Positions 27,001-39,000 of a stretch of DNA of 59,005 nt are shown here, piece after piece; position 1 is the stretch's first letter, and every line of letters begins with the position of its first letter. The stretch spans positions 62,001 through 121,005 of the forward strand of contig JABANN010000027.1 in the NCBI GenBank assembly GCA_013115125.1. Reading direction: 5' to 3'. Made by a program: the position numbers. This stretch comes from Perkinsus olseni. Lineage: Eukaryota.

Positions 27001-30000
27001 TGCCCCCTCGCGACAGATACCAATACTCAAGGATCTCAATCACTACGAGATTTCCCAGCTATCGGACATGCTTGAACCCCAAGATCACAAGGCGGGGGAT
27101 ATTCTGATGAGGCAAGGGGACCCCGGAGATAAGTCCGACCGGTCTTGGGGTGTCCTCCTTTGTACCGCGCATCTCAGTTTCTATATCCTCGAGTCGGGCG
27201 TAGCGAAGGCCTGCCTGACGGGCGATGATGGCAACGAGGTCGTCGCGAAGGTGTACAACAGCCCAGGGGAGTAGGTTGAGGACCGTCGCCGCCTCTAGCC
27301 GACACCCTCTGCTCTCAGTTACTTCGGAGAGCTGGCGCTGTTGACGTCGGCTCCCAGAAGGGCGACTGTTTACGCGTCCGGTGATGGCTGTCGAGTGCTT
27401 GGCCTTTCGAAGGAGAAGTTCAATCGCGTCCTCGGGCCCATCAGACGTCGCTTGGAAGCCAAGATGGGCGATGTAGGAGCGGAGTGCTGTCTCTTCAGTG
27501 AGCGCCTCGTTTTCAGTACCCCCAGTATGCGGATATCATTCGGCAGCAGGCGGAGTGCGAGCCGAGTAGCTTTCGACCGTCGCCCCGCTCGTCCGACGTT
27601 TACTCTTCCAGGTTCCCCTAGTGACCTGATGGGGCCCTCTGACGAGGAGGTAAGGTGCTGAGTAGAAGCAAGTGCTTCCAGTCCGTCCCTTCCACTACAG
27701 GAAGAGGCTCCCAAGACTAAACTAGAGCTGCTACTGCGGCAGGATACCAAGGCCCCGCAGGACCTAGGCCCAGTGAGGGACAGACGTGCAGGTGTGTCGG
27801 CCCCCCAGGTAGGAGTCGACTTAGTGCAGTCCCTCAGCTGCCACCTCTCGCTACAGTTGCTCAGTACCGCGGTTCTGCTGCATAGGTCTCACAATACGAA
27901 GCCGAGCATTGGGAGAAGCCAGTGTTTGATAAGACACAGGAGGAGAAGAACATGATAGCCAAAATGATAGAGGAGAACTCCAAGCTCCAGGTGGCACAAT
28001 GACAGCCGACGATGATGAGATTGAGGTGGCCTACTTGTCAGGTCCTCTTTGGCCACCTTCAACCTGCCGCCCTCTCGGACGTCATTATGGCTATGGTAGG
28101 AGGCCTGGCTCGCACCGCTCACGAAGGGGGATGTGTTCAGTATCCGAAGTCCGTGGAGGCCGGCACCGATGTTATCGAGCAGGGTGATGTTGGCGACGCT
28201 TTCTACATAGTAGCGGAAGGAGAGCTTCACGTGCATGTTCGTCGACCGGGCGAAGACGAGTCCAGCAAAGGCGCGAAGGTGCTGTCTTCCACTGAACTGT
28301 GGGGTAGAATATTGTCTCTGCTGCAGGTGTTAGAGTTAGGGCCCGGGTCTCTATTCGGCGAGTTGGCGTTGCTCTACAACGCTCCTCGAGCAGCTACAGT
28401 GACGGCGGTGTCGGACTCTAAGGTCGATGGGGTTGCGCGTGTGGGGCGTGGAATCGAAGCGTTGCCTTCCTTAGCTCTGGGGCCTGGATGCAGACAGCTT
28501 CCGCTTGATGCTGAGGACAGCGGAGGCGATAGAACCCAAGGAGAACGAGGATTTTGTTAACAACTGCGAGGCGTTTGCGAAGCTTAACAGGTGACACGAT
28601 GGAACTTCCTGTCCATCTAGCCGATGGTTCCACACGGTAGGTTTGAGAGGGCCGAGCTGGCCGCGGTCCTTGACAGAGAATTGTTCGATGGTGATGAGGT
28701 GTTCGCCCGTAAAGGCGATGTCGCTGATCGGATGTTCATCCTGGAGGATGGAGCTGCCATAGCGTTTGACGAGGACCTCAACGTACGGGAAATTTATTAT
28801 TGCCCTTAGTATCCTCTTCTTTGTAGGAACTAGCACGATTATCGAATCCAGGCAGTATCATGGGGGAGGTTGGACTACTCGCTGCTGATGGCAAGAGGAG
28901 AGCGTCATTGAAGGCTGCAGGGGAGGGCTGCTCGGTGTTCACGCTTGACAAGGATTCCTTCGACAGGTATTCCGCGCGGAGAAATATTCGGCGCTTTGAG
29001 TGCTGCTCAGCTGACTCTCCCTCTCAGGATGTTGAAACCCCTTCACGATGACATGCGAGAGGTTGCCATGAGGTACAGCAAGGATCCGCTGACCGAAGGC
29101 TAACGCCACCATGTTCATGATATTAAAGTTGTTGATTATTTTGCGTGTTGTGTTCCCGAGTTGCGAGAGGTAGGCCGTATCTTAGGTTTGCCCTACTCTC
29201 TGCTAGAGCGCTATTCTCTGTGCTCAACAAGCTTGCCTAAACTCATCCCTCTTGAAGCATCGGAGAACATAAAGATACATCGGTAGCTACGCTGGCTAAG
29301 TCGGTTCTCAACGTGCGACTTTAAACTCACACACACGCGAGGGTGGCCTCGACAATTCACGGAACGAATACTCATGAACTTCGATACTTTGATACTCACG
29401 AACGAAACGAATTCCGTTCCGAATTGCGTTGAGGGTCGAGGCTGGCCCAACTGAACGCAACTCATCATAGGCAAAAAACACGTGCCATAGACTTACTGGC
29501 TGAATGGAGATACTCGTCAGTAACACAGAGAACATCGACAATAGAGGCTCAAGTGGAACCTCGGGGTGCTATTTCAGATTCTATAACATCGACAACCCGT
29601 CGTAGCTGCTCAGCATTGAGGGTGTTGGCCAAACGGGCTAGCTGCTCTCGAAGGGCTACAGCATCCTCCTCTGAGTTAACGGACTCCGACGCTCTCCGCT
29701 TCGCACTGCTATTCGGACTCGCCGGTGCAGGCCGCTTCAAACCGAGTTCCTTTGGGGGGATGGTTTCGGTCGCACTGCATTCGGCAAGGACAGGCGACGA
29801 GGGCTCGTCTTGCGATGGAGAGCTCGTCAAGTCCACCACCTCGACACTCAGCGCTCGGTCGGGTGCAACGACGATGTTGCTCGTCACAAAGTCCCACGCC
29901 GCGGCCCATCCGCCATCTGCTAACCCGCCCGCATCAATCCACACGGCACCAAGGATTGCCTCGACGCAGTCAGCAAGCGGCTTAGGACCCCTCCTAACCG

Positions 30001-36000: not shown

Positions 36001-39000
36001 GGACCTTCCCAGTCCGCTGGCTGAAATGGGTATCTCCTTGACAGCCTCGATCACTCGACCCGGCAGCGGGCCAGGAGTCAAGATGCACAGTTTCTCCAGA
36101 GTACTCACACGCTTCCGCGTCAACTCCTTCCATCTGGCCAACCTCTCCGGGACCTCTATCCCTGCCTGGTGCCACTGAGGCCTCAACCGATAGGCATACA
36201 TAACCGTGACACCCTCCGCAGGTTTCACCATCGCCGGGGCTACATCAGGTCTGCGCTCGGCCAACTGATGGGCAGCCAACTCGAGGAGATCAGCTGGAGG
36301 GAGGAGCTCCTCACGGACGCCATCAGCCTTACCCGCAGCGTACATGTTTTTGAACTGGGGTGTCGCCCAAGGCAGCATCGTCAGCTTCCCCAGCTGCCTG
36401 GCACTGGCCTCTCGAATGGCTCTGGCCTTGGTGGTGTGCCAACGGCTCATCGCCCATCTTGCTATCGGTGGATGGACTGAGGATGGCAGTAGGACAGTAC
36501 AGCGGAATTGTTCGTCCCTCTTCTCGCCAAAGAACATCGGGGTGGGCGTGAAGAACTCATCAGTGGCCGTAAGGGAGGAGGCAAACTCGTGGAGAGCGCC
36601 CTTGGCGTGTCGGCAGGAGACCCTCACACCTTCTCGCCCGACCACAACTCTCGGATCGATCTCGCTGTCAGAATCATCATCCTCCGAGCCGACGTCTTCC
36701 CAGCAGTCTGCTAGGGTGGCCATCTGAGCTTCTTGCCGTTTGTACCCAGCCAGGGCCTTCTCAGCTCTCCCCACGCCATCGTGGGAGGCCTCGACGAGAA
36801 CGATGAGCTCAGATTTCCTAGGCCTGATCTTGCGTGCTCTGCCTCGACGCTGTATGAAGCTGCGGACGTTTGGCGGCACATCCCACATGACAACGCAGTC
36901 GCAAATGGGAACATCGACCCCTTCATCGCATACGGAGGTGGCGATGAGCACAGCTGGCTGGCAGGCCTCCTCGGCCGTGTCCTTAAACCACTCCAACGCT
37001 TCGGTCTGCTTGCTCACTCTCTCGCCGCTACCACCGACACAATGCCGCAGCCCCAAGGTGGCTGCCAATGCGCGCGCCATCAACCTCTCTCCGACGAAGA
37101 CTATAGTAGCAGAGTACTTGGAGTGTGGAAGGTCGTCAAGTTGAAGCACCGAGTGGAGCTTCAGCAGCTTATCACCATCCACGGCCATACCGAGGAGTCG
37201 GGGAACGAAGGTGCCGTTGATGTAGCGCTTGAGGTCCTCCAGACTAACACCGGGGATGTCAGCGGTGCCGGCCACCTCAACAAGTTCGAGTCCACTGTAG
37301 ACGCAGACGGCTTGGCAGGCCTCCCACAGAGACTCCCTCACAGCGTTGGCCATGGTCCCAGGCCACAGCGGAAACTGGGCGATGTGCTCCTCGAGCCTCT
37401 TAATGCGGAACTGAAAGGAAATAGTGATGACGCAAGAGCTTCCACCTGGCCTACCTTCAGGCGACCCGGTTCAATCTTAGCCTCCGCTTGGTTGTAGAGC
37501 TCGGGAAGGGCGTAGTCCTCGAGGATCTCATCGTGCGTACGACAGATATACGTGAGAGCATGCAATGCAGCTCGACTGCCACCCTGAAAAGAAAGCCTCA
37601 GCAAGTGGTGGGTCGTACCAGAAACTAGCAGACTACCTCGTGCAGGACCTTCCCGAGCTGACCGATCAACTCGCAGTAATAGGATATTTCATTGTGAGGT
37701 AGATCCATGAGGTTAGCGCTGACCAGTCCGACCACAGTGGTGTAGTTGGCATCGATGTGCCTCGACGACTTCCTTATAGCACAGTACTCCTCGAGCCACG
37801 ACACTCGCTTGTAAGCACCGCACATGAGGTCATGCAGACGCTGGCCGGCGAGTTCGCAGTCATCAAATCGGCCACAGTTGGGAGAGTAGCTGGCCGAAGC
37901 ATGCAGCTCCAATTGAGGGTCCGGCGTGTGGACATACTCCTTCAGCTCGGCATGGGTGGCGGTCGGCCGCACTATCTCGCACTCGCCGTTCAGGGACAGC
38001 ACGGTCTTTAACTGCTGCATATTCTTCTGAACGTCCACCTTCTTGCAGTTGATCGGGCTCGCTGTGAGACCAACGTACTTTTCTGCGCCCCTGGCCAGCT
38101 GGGCAAGCTGGCAATAGGGATGACCGCTGCTGACACCCTTCTTGGACACGCAGTGATGACACTCGTCGAAGATCAACGTGTCGATTACAGCAGAGTCCAC
38201 AAAATTGGACGCCAGAACACGTCTGAGGATCTCTGGCACGCAGACGATGACCTCGAAGTCCGACACAACGCCCCTCCACTCCGTACTGCCCCAGTTGTCA
38301 ATGGCGGGAGTCTCCCCAGTGAGAACGCGGACTCTGCACCGCTGATCATCGCCGATGTTGCTGCTGATGTAGGCTGCCTGCTGATGGCAAAGGACCTTGT
38401 TAGGAGCACAGAAGACGCAAATCCTCTTGGGTTGGCCATCAGCGGTGTTCCTCAGTTGAAGGGCAAGCCGCTCGCGCAGCAACCAGACAGCCACGAGAGT
38501 CTTTCCCGAGCCGGTCGGCATGAAGGCCACCGTCGACTTATACTCGCGAATCTTGGCGAGCACCTCGAGCTGGTAGCTGCGTAGCTCCATCTTGGGAGGC
38601 TAAGAAAAGACAACTGAGCCAAAGAGGTACTATCTGAAGAGGTGGTATCTCAGCGAGTCCGCGTTGTACGCAGTGGCCAACGAGGTGGAGCGGACTATAC
38701 CGTATCGGTATCAGCGACTAATGAGTCGCTTCATCTCAGCACCCATCCTTCCCGCTCCTTTCCTCTAAATTGATGACACCAAACGCAACACAGACGATCA
38801 GTAGGGGCCGTCAGCGGACTGTTGACCGTCTCGAAACTCACTATCACTGTCGTAGGCATCTCCAACGATCGCAAACGTTCGACAAACGTGACATGAGCCA
38901 GAGAGATGCTAAAAGCAATGAACAAGATTATTGGGCTCGAGTCTAGCCGCTAGACGCAGAGAGTAACGACAAAGATTTGGGACTGGTATCTTGGGGTAAG

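What the first reader, a model, noticed from the sequence alone, without database searches (positions are those of the whole stretch)
29549..38590. Tandem Dicer-like pair, each with a dead RNase IIIa and a live RNase IIIb
Seen: the IIIa signature is ERYEALGSS in A (~30815-30841) and EKHEPLGCA in B (~35566-35592), where the canonical form is ERLExLGD. The second acidic motif (AD..EA) is also lost in both (ANAARSCLLAL; LNALRTSTTAL). IIIb is canonical in both. Known: IIIa and IIIb each cut one strand of the duplex. Inference: these are one-strand dsRNA nickases, or must cooperate in trans, implying a non-canonical small-RNA or dsRNA-defence pathway. The ORFs and helicase motifs are intact, which argues against pseudogenes.
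Basis: partly seen in the sequence, partly recalled or inferred. Interest (0 to 1): 0.8.

Follow-up and report, generated by a model that had tools for sequence, protein, structure and literature searches.

The report
Half-dead tandem Dicers of Perkinsus
Two neighbouring, expressed Dicer-like genes of the mollusc parasite Perkinsus olseni each keep only one of the two RNA-cutting sites that Dicer enzymes normally use, so each probably cuts just one strand of double-stranded RNA.

Summary
The window is Perkinsus olseni DNA. It carries two head-to-tail Dicer-like genes on the minus strand: A (1406 aa) and B (1398 aa), each with three exons. Spliced transcript contigs cover them in 4 public runs from 4 studies. 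Both encode a helicase, a Dicer dimerisation domain, a platform/PAZ-like region, RNase IIIa and RNase IIIb.

In IIIa, five active-centre positions are replaced in all 5 Perkinsus-type sequences compared. These are the D44, N, K, D107 and E110 equivalents. The same positions are kept in 58-59 of 59 other Dicers. In IIIb every catalytic residue is canonical.

The N-terminal half of IIIa is as conserved as IIIb between orthologues. AlphaFold models of both proteins superpose on whole Dicers. IIIa is therefore a retained pseudo-nuclease, not decay.

Most likely each protein is an in-cis enzyme/pseudoenzyme RNase III pair that cuts one strand per binding event. Cooperation of two molecules is the main rival.

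No biochemistry, small-RNA data or Argonaute/RdRP search was possible. I found no published natural Dicer of this kind. Verdict: a new variant of a known kind, of moderately high interest.

The parts
29549..33912 (-). Gene A coding region, 1406 aa. Exons 33912-32950, 32880-32752 and 32677-29549 (stop included). Introns 32949-32881 (69 nt) and 32751-32678 (74 nt), both GT..AG.
   Evidence: no internal stop. (joints 32677/32752 and 32880/32950 in X1 and X15; transcript contig 29481..33923). (P0010 reads across the same junctions).
34297..38590 (-). Gene B coding region, 1398 aa. Exons 38590-37637, 37583-37455 and 37410-34297. Introns 37636-37584 (53 nt) and 37454-37411 (44 nt), both GT..AG.
   Evidence: (both joints in 4 of 4 runs; transcript contig 34100..38615).
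32950..33912 (-). Gene A helicase N-lobe (DEAD/ResIII), with motifs I GSGKT, II DECHH and III TAS.
   Evidence: PF00270 E 8.6e-16, PF04851 E 5.4e-15..
32093..32368 (-). Gene A Helicase_C, including motif VI QRRGRAR.
   Evidence: PF00271 E 3.2e-13, residues 102-193 of P0001..
31625..31858 (-). Gene A Dicer dimerisation (DUF283) domain.
   Evidence: PF03368, 23.5 bits, just under the 23.7 cut-off. Fold matches.
30902..31549 (-). Gene A middle region (P0001 residues about 375-590). It superposes on the platform-PAZ-connector part of solved Dicers. Pfam does not call a PAZ domain.
   Evidence: 7vg2_A Z 23.5, rmsd 5.1, 481 aligned, model 375..961 vs chain 620..1417. (no PF02170).
30497..30901 (-). 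Gene A RNase IIIa pseudo-nuclease domain (P0001 591-725). Signature ERYEALGSS at 30815-30841. S618 codon 30818-30820, S695 codon 30587-30589, L698 codon 30578-30580.
   Evidence: (HMM E 5e-10). pLDDT above 90.
29867..30310 (-). Gene A RNase IIIb, canonical (E812, E815, D819, K897, D901, E904).
   Evidence: PF00636 E 1.3e-21.. (2eb1_C Z 20.6, rmsd 2.3, 162 aligned).
37637..38590 (-). Gene B helicase N-lobe (DEAD/ResIII).
   Evidence: PF00270 E 2.4e-15..
36832..37125 (-). Gene B Helicase_C.
   Evidence: PF00271 E 6.3e-12, residues 77-174 of P0003.
36403..36606 (-). Gene B Dicer dimerisation domain.
   Evidence: PF03368, 34.4 bits, above the cut-off.
35200..35652 (-). Gene B RNase IIIa pseudo-nuclease domain (P0003 about 568-718). 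Signature EKHEPLGCA at 35566-35592. C595 codon 35569-35571, T688 codon 35290-35292, T691 codon 35281-35283.
   Evidence: HMM E 5e-5; Pfam does not call it.. Helices with pLDDT 83-96.
34579..35013 (-). Gene B RNase IIIb, canonical (E808, D812, D891, E894).
   Evidence: PF00636 E 7.8e-12.. (2eb1_C Z 17.4, rmsd 2.7, 161 aligned).
38614..38615 (-). Trans-splice acceptor AG of gene B. Transcript contigs carry the 3' end of the Perkinsus spliced leader in front of 38613.
   Evidence: loose ends in X1, X3 and X15. (genomic sequence). (SL sequence in PMC3101222).
33926..33927 (-). Probable trans-splice acceptor AG of gene A. It lies 14 nt upstream of the ATG at 33912 and about 175 nt downstream of the 3' end of the B transcript (about 34100).
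   Evidence: contigs end at 33923 and 33927. (sequence). The acceptor itself is inferred.

Best explanation
These are two anciently duplicated, head-to-tail, expressed Dicer-like genes of Perkinsus olseni. Each protein has the helicase-containing Dicer body plan: RIG-I-like helicase, DUF283, a compact platform/PAZ-like region, RNase IIIa and RNase IIIb. No dsRBD is recognisable.

Shown:
- IIIa has lost five active-centre residues, including the metal-bridging E110-equivalent.
- IIIa is nevertheless conserved and confidently folded.
- IIIb is fully canonical.

Inferred: IIIa now serves as the obligatory dimer partner and RNA-binding half of an intramolecular enzyme/pseudoenzyme RNase III pair. 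The processing centre then holds a single catalytic site, in IIIb. Each binding event would cut only one strand of a duplex. By analogy with other Dicers, that is the strand whose 5' end lies at the platform/PAZ end (the 5' arm of a hairpin).

The helicase ATPase motifs are intact. This suggests ATP-driven threading of long dsRNA, which would give repeated cuts on one strand.

My odds: about 0.85 that IIIa is catalytically dead and retained as a scaffold. About 0.5 that one-strand cutting by a single molecule is the physiological mode.
For: Identity and gene structure:
- a 100% identical P. olseni protein.
- complete CDS of 1406 and 1398 aa with GT..AG introns.
- spliced contigs. B's two introns are removed in 4 of 4 runs. 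A's are removed in 2 of 4; the other two runs had only short pieces. A spliced-leader remnant sits on the B mRNA.

Dead IIIa, live IIIb:
- five positions are changed in 5 of 5 Perkinsus rows and kept in 58-59 of 59 others.
- 7 of 7 Perkinsus rows against 0 of 151 others lack the D44-equivalent.
- HMMER aligns the IIIa signature to that of Arabidopsis DCL3, with S in place of D.

No substitute carboxylate nearby in sequence:
- there is no D or E within 3 residues of four of the lost sites (618, 691, 695, 698). Site 655 has one at +1, but only in the two B-type rows.

Retention under selection:
- IIIa N-half is 78% identical against 73% for IIIb (A vs P0006), and 91% against 89% (B vs P. marinus).
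- dN between A and B is 0.38 for the IIIa N-half, 0.37 for IIIb and 0.38-0.41 for the helicase.

Dicer-like fold with the IIIa/IIIb arrangement:
- pLDDT 79.2 for both models, pTM 0.70 and 0.72, RNase III parts mostly above 90.
- whole Dicers rank on top, Z 26. DCL3 gives rmsd 5.0-5.1 over 481-488 residues spanning the middle region plus both RNase III domains.

- Each RNase III domain cuts one strand; IIIa cuts the 3' arm and IIIb the 5' arm (PMC7827160 passage).
- The E110/E117 glutamate coordinates both metals and is essential.
- RNase III heterodimers with one functional site nick dsRNA (PMC3867540 passages).
Against: - There is no biochemical or small-RNA evidence of any kind.
- IIIa keeps the E37-, E40- and E64-equivalents. 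I could not see model coordinates, so a rebuilt site cannot be excluded geometrically.
- Both paralogues share the defect and both are expressed. That fits equally well with two molecules sharing the work.
- Whether Perkinsus has Argonaute, RdRP, a further Dicer/Drosha or a stand-alone RNase III partner was not testable, because no genome is held.
- The protein searches are limited by length window, word sharing and 8000 scored candidates.
- The census covers only the best 150 unnamed representatives. Their taxa are unknown, so dinoflagellate or other perkinsid Dicers may not be in it.
Confidence: 0.55

Rival explanations
1. Trans cooperation. A double-strand cut is made by two molecules (A with B, or two copies of one), each contributing its IIIb site. 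They could bind the same duplex in opposite orientations or enter from opposite ends. The pair would then behave as a split dicer.
For: Both paralogues carry the same defect. Both are expressed in the same runs. They have been kept side by side: the B-to-A order is also visible in a second P. olseni record, whose model reads from B into A (P0008). Entries titled as a Dicer-2 'Dimer' state on dsRNA are in the PDB (7w0a and 8hf0, titles listed).
Against: The predicted monomers already pair IIIa with IIIb as in other Dicers. That occupies the canonical RNase III dimer face. Nothing here shows an A-B or self interface. Synonymous sites between the paralogues are saturated (pS about 0.75). That fits sub-functionalisation as well as partnership.
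Confidence: 0.25
2. Not an RNAi enzyme. The single-site RNase III plus helicase has been recruited to another job. Examples are one-sided cleavage of structured precursors (rRNA, spliced-leader or polycistronic transcripts) or nicking of RNA:DNA hybrids or DNA in the nucleus. This concerns the role, and it is compatible with the one-strand mechanism.
For: Both tails carry basic patches that look like nuclear localisation signals. That is a pattern only. A review passage reports that C. elegans Dicer cut by caspase within IIIa stops acting as an RNase III and fragments chromosomal DNA (PMC7827160). A review says RdRP-related proteins had not been detected and speaks only generally of Argonaute-like proteins in this lineage (PMC6027434 passage).
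Against: The whole Dicer body plan is kept, including the threading helicase, DUF283 and the platform/PAZ-like region. That plan is built for measuring and cutting dsRNA. There are no data on localisation or substrates.
Confidence: 0.12
3. IIIa is still active through substitute residues, and these are ordinary double-strand-cutting Dicers.
For: Three acidic residues of the site remain (E611, E614, E642 in A). Two further acidic residues are conserved in all 5 Perkinsus rows: D609, which is also D in 20 of the 59 others, and E627, which is specific to the Perkinsus rows.
Against: The metal-bridging glutamate and both aspartates are replaced by S/T/L/C/G/N. The conserved N and K are gone as well. 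There is no D or E within 3 residues of four of the lost sites (618, 691, 695, 698). The D44-equivalent varies freely (S, N, G) among A-type sequences, which is unlike a functional site.
Confidence: 0.04
4. Decaying duplicates: pseudogenes or annotation artefacts.
For: All public protein models of these loci are partial or mis-spliced (668 to 1073 aa).
Against: The frames are intact over 1406 and 1398 codons. mRNA contigs are correctly spliced and carry the spliced leader, with 0 mismatches in most pieces. Helicase motifs and IIIb are canonical. Orthologues are 78-88% identical, with the dead-site pattern conserved.
Confidence: 0.02

Closest known systems
Helicase-containing Dicers with solved structures: Drosophila Dicer-2, Arabidopsis DCL3/DCL4/DCL1, mouse and human Dicer
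   Same: Same order of helicase, DUF283, platform/PAZ-like region, RNase IIIa and RNase IIIb. The whole-protein models superpose on them (Z 22-26). Helicase motifs are intact, as in ATP-dependent Dicers. IIIb is canonical.
   Different: IIIa lacks five active-centre residues. No PAZ or dsRBD is called by Pfam. Sequence identity is only about 20-25%. In the profile search the best non-Perkinsus protein scores 164 bits, against 1264-1890 bits for the three full-length Perkinsus-type proteins and 303 bits for a 202-aa fragment.
Single-site Dicer mutants: engineered 44/110 mutants (recalled: Zhang et al. 2004; Gurtan et al. 2012) and the tumour hotspot in RNase IIIb (PMC12700799, abstract read)
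   Same: One of the two sites is dead while the pseudo-dimer is intact. The outcome in those systems is cutting of one arm only and loss of one class of products.
   Different: Those are laboratory or disease alleles of a normal Dicer, and the natural hotspot hits IIIb. Here the dead site is IIIa. It is fixed in both paralogues and conserved between species.
Trypanosoma brucei editosome endonucleases KREN1-3 with degenerate RNase III partners KREPB4-10 (PMC6800513 abstract; PMC3867540 passage)
   Same: An enzyme/pseudoenzyme RNase III pair with one functional site, proposed to cut one strand of a duplex and spare the other.
   Different: There the two domains sit on separate proteins in a mitochondrial editing complex, with no Dicer helicase. 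Here they are fused in cis in a Dicer body plan. No specific homology to KREN or KREPB was tested.
Toxoplasma gondii Tg-Dicer (PMC2877743, passages read)
   Same: An alveolate Dicer with a helicase and two RNase III domains, but no recognisable PAZ or dsRBD.
   Different: It is described as having two catalytic RNase III domains. I did not have its sequence to check the residues.
C. elegans caspase-cleaved tDCR-1 (as described in review PMC7827160, passage read)
   Same: A Dicer whose IIIa is disabled while IIIb remains.
   Different: It is produced by proteolysis during apoptosis and lacks the N-terminal two thirds of the protein. It is reported to act on DNA. Nothing here shows DNA cutting.

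Membership tests
Dicer / Dicer-like (helicase-containing RNase III) | N-terminal RIG-I-like DExD/H helicase with ATPase motifs | tested here: met
   DEAD, ResIII and Helicase_C in both genes. GSGKT, DECHH, TAS and QRRGRAR in both.
Dicer / Dicer-like (helicase-containing RNase III) | DUF283 / Dicer dimerisation domain | tested here: met
   PF03368 scores 34.4 bits in B (cut-off 23.7) and 23.5 bits in A, just under the cut-off. Both models align to Dicers through this region.
Dicer / Dicer-like (helicase-containing RNase III) | PAZ domain with platform and connector (end-binding ruler) | tested here: inconclusive
   There is no PF02170 hit. The 215-residue middle region lies within structural alignments to the platform-PAZ-connector span of DCL3 and mouse Dicer. 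The domain was not folded and searched alone, and the pockets were not examined.
Dicer / Dicer-like (helicase-containing RNase III) | Two tandem RNase III domains arranged as an intramolecular pair | tested here: met
   two HMM hits in every Perkinsus-type full sequence; both domains are mostly above pLDDT 90; they superpose on the Dicer cores at rmsd about 5 over 480 residues. This is prediction, not experiment.
Dicer / Dicer-like (helicase-containing RNase III) | Both RNase III domains carry the catalytic E, D, D, E set | tested here: not met
   IIIa has E plus S/C/N/G, S/T and L/T. IIIb is complete.
Dicer / Dicer-like (helicase-containing RNase III) | C-terminal dsRBD (present in many Dicers, not all) | tested here: inconclusive
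   There is no dsrm hit. The tails are mostly below pLDDT 50 and end in two helices.
Dicer / Dicer-like (helicase-containing RNase III) | Produces small RNA duplexes of defined length for Argonaute | not testable with these tools
   No small-RNA data were available and no genome is held.
Enzyme/pseudoenzyme RNase III pairs (editosome KREN/KREPB type) | One catalytic and one non-catalytic RNase III domain paired | tested here: met
   Here the pair is in cis within one chain. This is a likeness of design, not of descent.
Enzyme/pseudoenzyme RNase III pairs (editosome KREN/KREPB type) | Cuts one strand of a duplex only | not testable with these tools
   This needs a cleavage assay.
Enzyme/pseudoenzyme RNase III pairs (editosome KREN/KREPB type) | Sequence membership in the KREN/KREPB families | not tested
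   No comparison was made. The best relatives found are Dicers.

The most novel reading that the evidence does not exclude
The genus Perkinsus may have no double-strand-cutting Dicer at all. Its only Dicers would be strand-selective nickases whose ATP-driven helicase threads dsRNA and peels off the pieces. Small RNAs would then arise from one strand or one hairpin arm only, without a duplex intermediate or passenger strand. Alternatively the enzymes act on RNA:DNA hybrids in the nucleus. Either way it would be a natural small-RNA (or nucleic-acid surveillance) route that bypasses the defining Dicer reaction.
Probability: 0.2. Interest if true: 0.85.

Novelty: new variant of a known kind. Interest (0 to 1): 0.62.

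Why it matters
Dicer is defined by a processing centre with two sites that make a staggered double-strand cut. Single-site versions are known to me only as engineered mutants and as tumour alleles.

Here a whole protist genus appears to have fixed a one-site Dicer in both of its paralogues and kept it under selection. That offers a natural system to ask three things:
- What a nicking Dicer produces.
- How such products are loaded into effectors.
- Whether pseudo-nuclease domains are a general way to make RNase III enzymes strand-selective, as proposed for the trypanosome editosome.

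There is also a practical gain. The public gene models of these loci are all fragmentary. The transcript-supported 1406- and 1398-aa models given here correct them.

Perkinsus olseni and P. marinus are, from recall, economically important parasites of clams, abalone and oysters. Knowing whether they have working RNAi bears on gene-knockdown tools for studying them.

Tried and rejected
- Whole-genome search for Piwi, and hence Argonaute or RdRP. No genome is held for this window, so the step was dropped.
- Earlier findings of this scan. Nothing on this genome or these proteins.
- A-with-B complex of the RNase III modules (complex prediction). The job was accepted. The verdict was 'no answer' (score 0.00, mark 0.34). 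This is no evidence either way.
- dN/dS between A and B. Synonymous sites are saturated (pS about 0.75), so ratios are not meaningful. I used dN per domain and orthologue identities instead. DNA of the orthologues was not available for a proper test.
- Sequencing runs. No RNA holder is listed on record; the runs laid were labelled 'RNA? (a guess)' or '?'. That they hold spliced forms was then seen directly. I did not rank the two genes by depth.
- Geometry of the IIIa pocket. Model coordinates are not given to scripts, so substitute carboxylates could only be looked for in sequence.
- Middle domain alone.
- A third Perkinsus Dicer or other RNase III partner. Searches returned only A-type and B-type Perkinsus proteins, but they covered only proteins of about 560-1820 aa that share 5-residue words.
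- Published natural Dicer with a dead IIIa. Full-text searches found none. They did find the editosome analogue and the tumour hotspot work. Subscription journals are not covered, and no supplements were read.
- Pseudogene reading. Rejected (see rival explanations).
- Neighbouring genes as functional context. These are a Y-family polymerase, cNMP-binding, JmjC, P450 and ALDH fragments, and none shows a link.

Full report
WHAT IS THERE

The window is eukaryotic. The best protein match is a 100% identical hypothetical protein of Perkinsus olseni, with further matches in P. olseni and P. marinus. The region 29549-38590 holds two genes in tandem on the minus strand.

Reading the splice sites and checking them in a script gives the following models:

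| Gene | Exons | Length | Introns |
|---|---|---|---|
| A | 33912-32950, 32880-32752, 32677-29549 | 1406 aa | 69 and 74 nt |
| B | 38590-37637, 37583-37455, 37410-34297 | 1398 aa | 53 and 44 nt |

All four introns are GT..AG and there are no internal stops. Both genes have the same three-exon plan (321/318, 43/43 and 1042/1037 codons). They are 46.6% identical (636 of 1364 aligned residues).

The ATG at 34074 that heads the raw ORF of gene A is not in the transcript. The real start is the MKLREYQ methionine at 33912.

EXPRESSION

I laid the contigs of four public runs from four studies (X1, X2, X3, X15) on 29400-38800.
- Both introns of B are skipped in 4 of 4 runs.
- Both introns of A are skipped in X1 and X15. 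X2 and X3 held only short A pieces that do not bridge them.
- Long contigs cover A from 29481 to 33923 and B from 34100 to 38615. Almost all have 0 differing letters; there is one T>C at 38539 in X2.
- Beyond 38615 the contigs of X1, X3 and X15 carry letters that, on the gene's strand, read as the last bases of the Perkinsus spliced leader given in PMC3101222 (passage). They are joined at the AG at 38615-38614. So the B mRNA is trans-spliced.
- A's contigs end at an AG at 33927-33926, only about 175 nt downstream of B's 3' end.
- A partial P. olseni protein (P0010) reads across the same A junctions.

The runs are not on record as RNA. The spliced forms are what shows they contain transcripts.

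DOMAINS

Pfam finds the following:
- DEAD/ResIII in both first exons.
- Helicase_C in both long exons.
- Dicer_dimer in both: 34.4 bits in B, and 23.5 bits in A, a hair under the 23.7 cut-off.
- Ribonuclease_3 in both. In A it has two matched stretches (only the IIIb one, 812-915, is printed). In B it calls IIIb only.
- No PAZ and no dsrm.

Helicase motifs I, II (DECHH), III and VI are present in both.

THE OBSERVATION

I aligned the 5 Perkinsus-type sequences with 59 other Dicer-like proteins. The 5 are A, B, an unnamed 64%-identical A-type (P0006), an 88%-identical P. olseni A-type (P0007), and the P. marinus B-type (P0009). The 59 others are 55 taken from the 150 best rows of the profile search and 4 from the first search.

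| IIIa position (equivalent) | A, B, P0006, P0007, P0009 | 59 other Dicers |
|---|---|---|
| E37 | E in all | mixed: E, Q, N, D |
| E40 | E in all | E 59/59 |
| D44 | S, C, N, G, C | D 59/59 |
| E64 | E in all | E 59/59 |
| conserved N | H, R, R, H, R | N 59/59 |
| conserved K | N, N, S, N, N | K or R 59/59 |
| D107 | S, T, S, S, T | D 58/59, E 1/59 |
| E110 | L, T, L, L, T | E 59/59 |

IIIb has E, E, D, K, D, E in all five Perkinsus rows.

A second, independent route gave the same answer. I built an RNase III HMM from the hits themselves and used hmmalign on the IIIa and IIIb segments of 158 two-domain proteins. All 7 Perkinsus-type rows lack the D44-equivalent in IIIa, and 0 of the 151 others lack it. 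Of those 151, 148 have the full E-D-D-E set. One has E at the D107 position, and two were not aligned at the second motif. Two proteins were skipped for lack of two domain starts (P0018, P0157).

HMMER against PDB sequences aligns A's signature directly onto that of Arabidopsis DCL3, with S under the D.

No D or E lies within three residues of four of the lost sites (618, 691, 695, 698). Position 655 has one at +1, but only in the two B-type rows.

IS IIIa DECAYING OR KEPT?

Between orthologues the N-terminal half of IIIa (signature helix to the LEGKLT motif) is as conserved as IIIb:
- A vs P0006: 51/65 (78%) against 106/145 (73%).
- B vs P. marinus: 59/65 (91%) against 124/140 (89%).

Between A and B, dN is 0.38 for this half, 0.37 for IIIb and 0.38-0.41 for the helicase.

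The C-terminal half, which carried D107 and E110, is looser. dN is 1.01, and it is 28% identical between A and B, though 65-80% identical between orthologues.

Synonymous sites between A and B are saturated (pS about 0.75). The duplication is therefore old. It predates the P. olseni/P. marinus split, because P. marinus B is 78% identical to B but about 43% to A.

Both copies share all five losses, and four of the five sequences share N at the K position. The simplest reading is that IIIa died before the duplication. The D44-equivalent varies freely in the A lineage (S, N, G) and is fixed as C in the B lineage.

FOLD

AlphaFold2 models were made of the two long exons, using the 64-sequence alignments.
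- Mean pLDDT is 79.2 for both, with pTM 0.70 and 0.72.
- The RNase III helices are mostly above 90. Only the insertion loop inside IIIa and the tails are poor.

Foldseek puts whole Dicers on top (best E 2.6e-22; 90 matches at E 0.001 or better).

VIA-align results:

| Model | PDB chain | Z | rmsd | Aligned | Model range vs chain range |
|---|---|---|---|---|---|
| A | mouse Dicer 7zpk_A | 26.1 | 11.2 | 713 | 76-957 vs 371-1851 |
| A | DCL3 7vg2_A | 23.5 | 5.1 | 481 | 375-961 vs 620-1417 |
| A | mouse Dicer, dicing state, 7zpi_A | 21.0 | 5.7 | 465 | 375-950 vs 739-1890 |
| A | human IIIb 2eb1_C | 20.6 | 2.3 | 162 | 767-940 vs 2-188 |
| B | 7v6c_A | 26.0 | 11.2 | 738 | 45-929 vs 301-1648 |
| B | 7vg2_A | 22.6 | 5.0 | 488 | 349-932 vs 620-1355 |

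So the predicted proteins keep the Dicer core. That is a compact platform/PAZ/connector-like region followed by IIIa and IIIb placed as in solved Dicers. These are predictions.

HOW IT MOST LIKELY WORKS

- Each RNase III domain hydrolyses one strand.
- In Dicers, IIIa cuts the 3' arm and IIIb the arm carrying the 5' phosphate (PMC7827160).
- The E110/E117 glutamate coordinates both catalytic metals and is essential.
- RNase III heterodimers with one good site nick dsRNA.
- The trypanosome editing endonucleases are thought to pair with non-catalytic RNase III proteins for one-strand cutting (PMC3867540; PMC6800513 abstract).

Applied here, this is inference. IIIa has become the non-catalytic half of an in-cis enzyme/pseudoenzyme pair. 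It holds IIIb in shape and helps bind the duplex, and each molecule cuts only the strand lying in the IIIb site.

The intact helicase ATPase motifs suggest threading of long dsRNA, with repeated cuts on one strand.

The main rival is that two molecules (A with B, or two of a kind) supply the two cuts. I cannot separate these readings. The one test I could run on an A-B interface gave no answer (see tried and rejected).

A role outside RNAi also remains open, for example precursor processing or nuclear nicking. No Argonaute or RdRP search was possible. The literature says only that BLAST found Dicer-like proteins in P. marinus, and it speaks generally of Argonaute-like proteins in the lineage (PMC6027434 passage).

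COMPARISON WITH WHAT IS KNOWN

By architecture and fold these are Dicer-like proteins, but they fail one defining feature: two catalytic RNase III domains.

They are isolated in sequence. In a profile search of 1.84 billion representatives, the three full-length Perkinsus-type proteins score 1264-1890 bits and a 202-aa fragment 303 bits. The next protein scores 164 bits (5996 hits at E 0.001 or better).

Word-based searches from three parts of the proteins returned only A-type and B-type Perkinsus proteins, plus distant fungal, plant, animal and one Ochromonas Dicer. No canonical third Dicer surfaced, within the limits of those searches.

An earlier paper had listed P. marinus among protists with helicase-plus-RNase-III proteins, and remarked that some of these show only one RNase III domain (PMC3566956 passage). 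That fits Pfam's failure to call IIIa in B.

I found no paper describing a natural Dicer with a dead IIIa (searches; open-access full text and bioRxiv only). The Dicer reviews I searched with term look-ups (PMC10328071, PMC7827160) showed no mention of one. PMC10328071 lists further protist architectures as an open question.

The nearest functional parallels are these:
- Engineered single-site Dicers (recalled: Zhang et al. 2004; Gurtan et al. 2012; not read here).
- The tumour hotspot in IIIb (PMC12700799, abstract).
- The editosome pairs.

VERDICT

This is a new variant of a known kind. It is interesting because it is fixed, conserved, expressed and present in both paralogues. It is limited by the complete lack of functional data.

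Noticed in passing
window 38613-38640 (minus strand): Transcript contigs of gene B carry the 3' end of the Perkinsus spliced leader joined at the AG at 38615-38614. The genomic DNA just upstream (38626-38614) itself resembles the leader's 3' end with a one-base difference. This may be a relic leader of the kind reported in dinoflagellates (recalled) or chance.
   Followed up: partly
window 33926-34100: Only about 175 nt separate the 3' end of the B transcript (about 34100) from the probable trans-splice acceptor of A (33927-33926). The two genes may be co-transcribed and then separated by trans-splicing and polyadenylation.
   Followed up: no
genes A and B; public proteins P0005, P0007, P0008, P0009, P0010: All public models of these loci are partial or mis-spliced (1073, 668, 1027, 798 and 638 aa, against 1406 and 1398 aa supported here). 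P0008 reads from the end of B into the start of A, which shows the same B-to-A order in a second P. olseni record.
   Followed up: partly
window about 29600-29870 (A tail) and about 34340-34580 (B tail), minus strand: Both C-terminal tails are disordered in the models. Each carries a basic patch that looks like a nuclear localisation signal: a run of R/K in B that is also present in P. marinus, and a bipartite-looking KR..KRR in A. Each then ends in two conserved helices. No dsRBD is present.
   Followed up: no
window 30755-30766 (P0001 residues 636-639), minus strand: There is a four-residue insertion in IIIa just before the LEGKL motif. It is present in all 5 Perkinsus-type sequences and absent (gap) in 57-58 of the 64 aligned rows.
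   Followed up: no
window 16810-18981 (-), 28012-28560 (+), 49318-50010 (-), 52324-53211 (+), 54612-55412 (+): Neighbouring ORF pieces match a Y-family DNA polymerase (IMS), a cyclic-nucleotide-binding domain, JmjC, cytochrome P450 and aldehyde dehydrogenase. There is no evident link to the Dicer pair.
   Followed up: no
window 46001-50000: There is a strong negative GC skew (-0.18 to -0.25) over about 4 kb, in contrast to the rest of the window.
   Followed up: no
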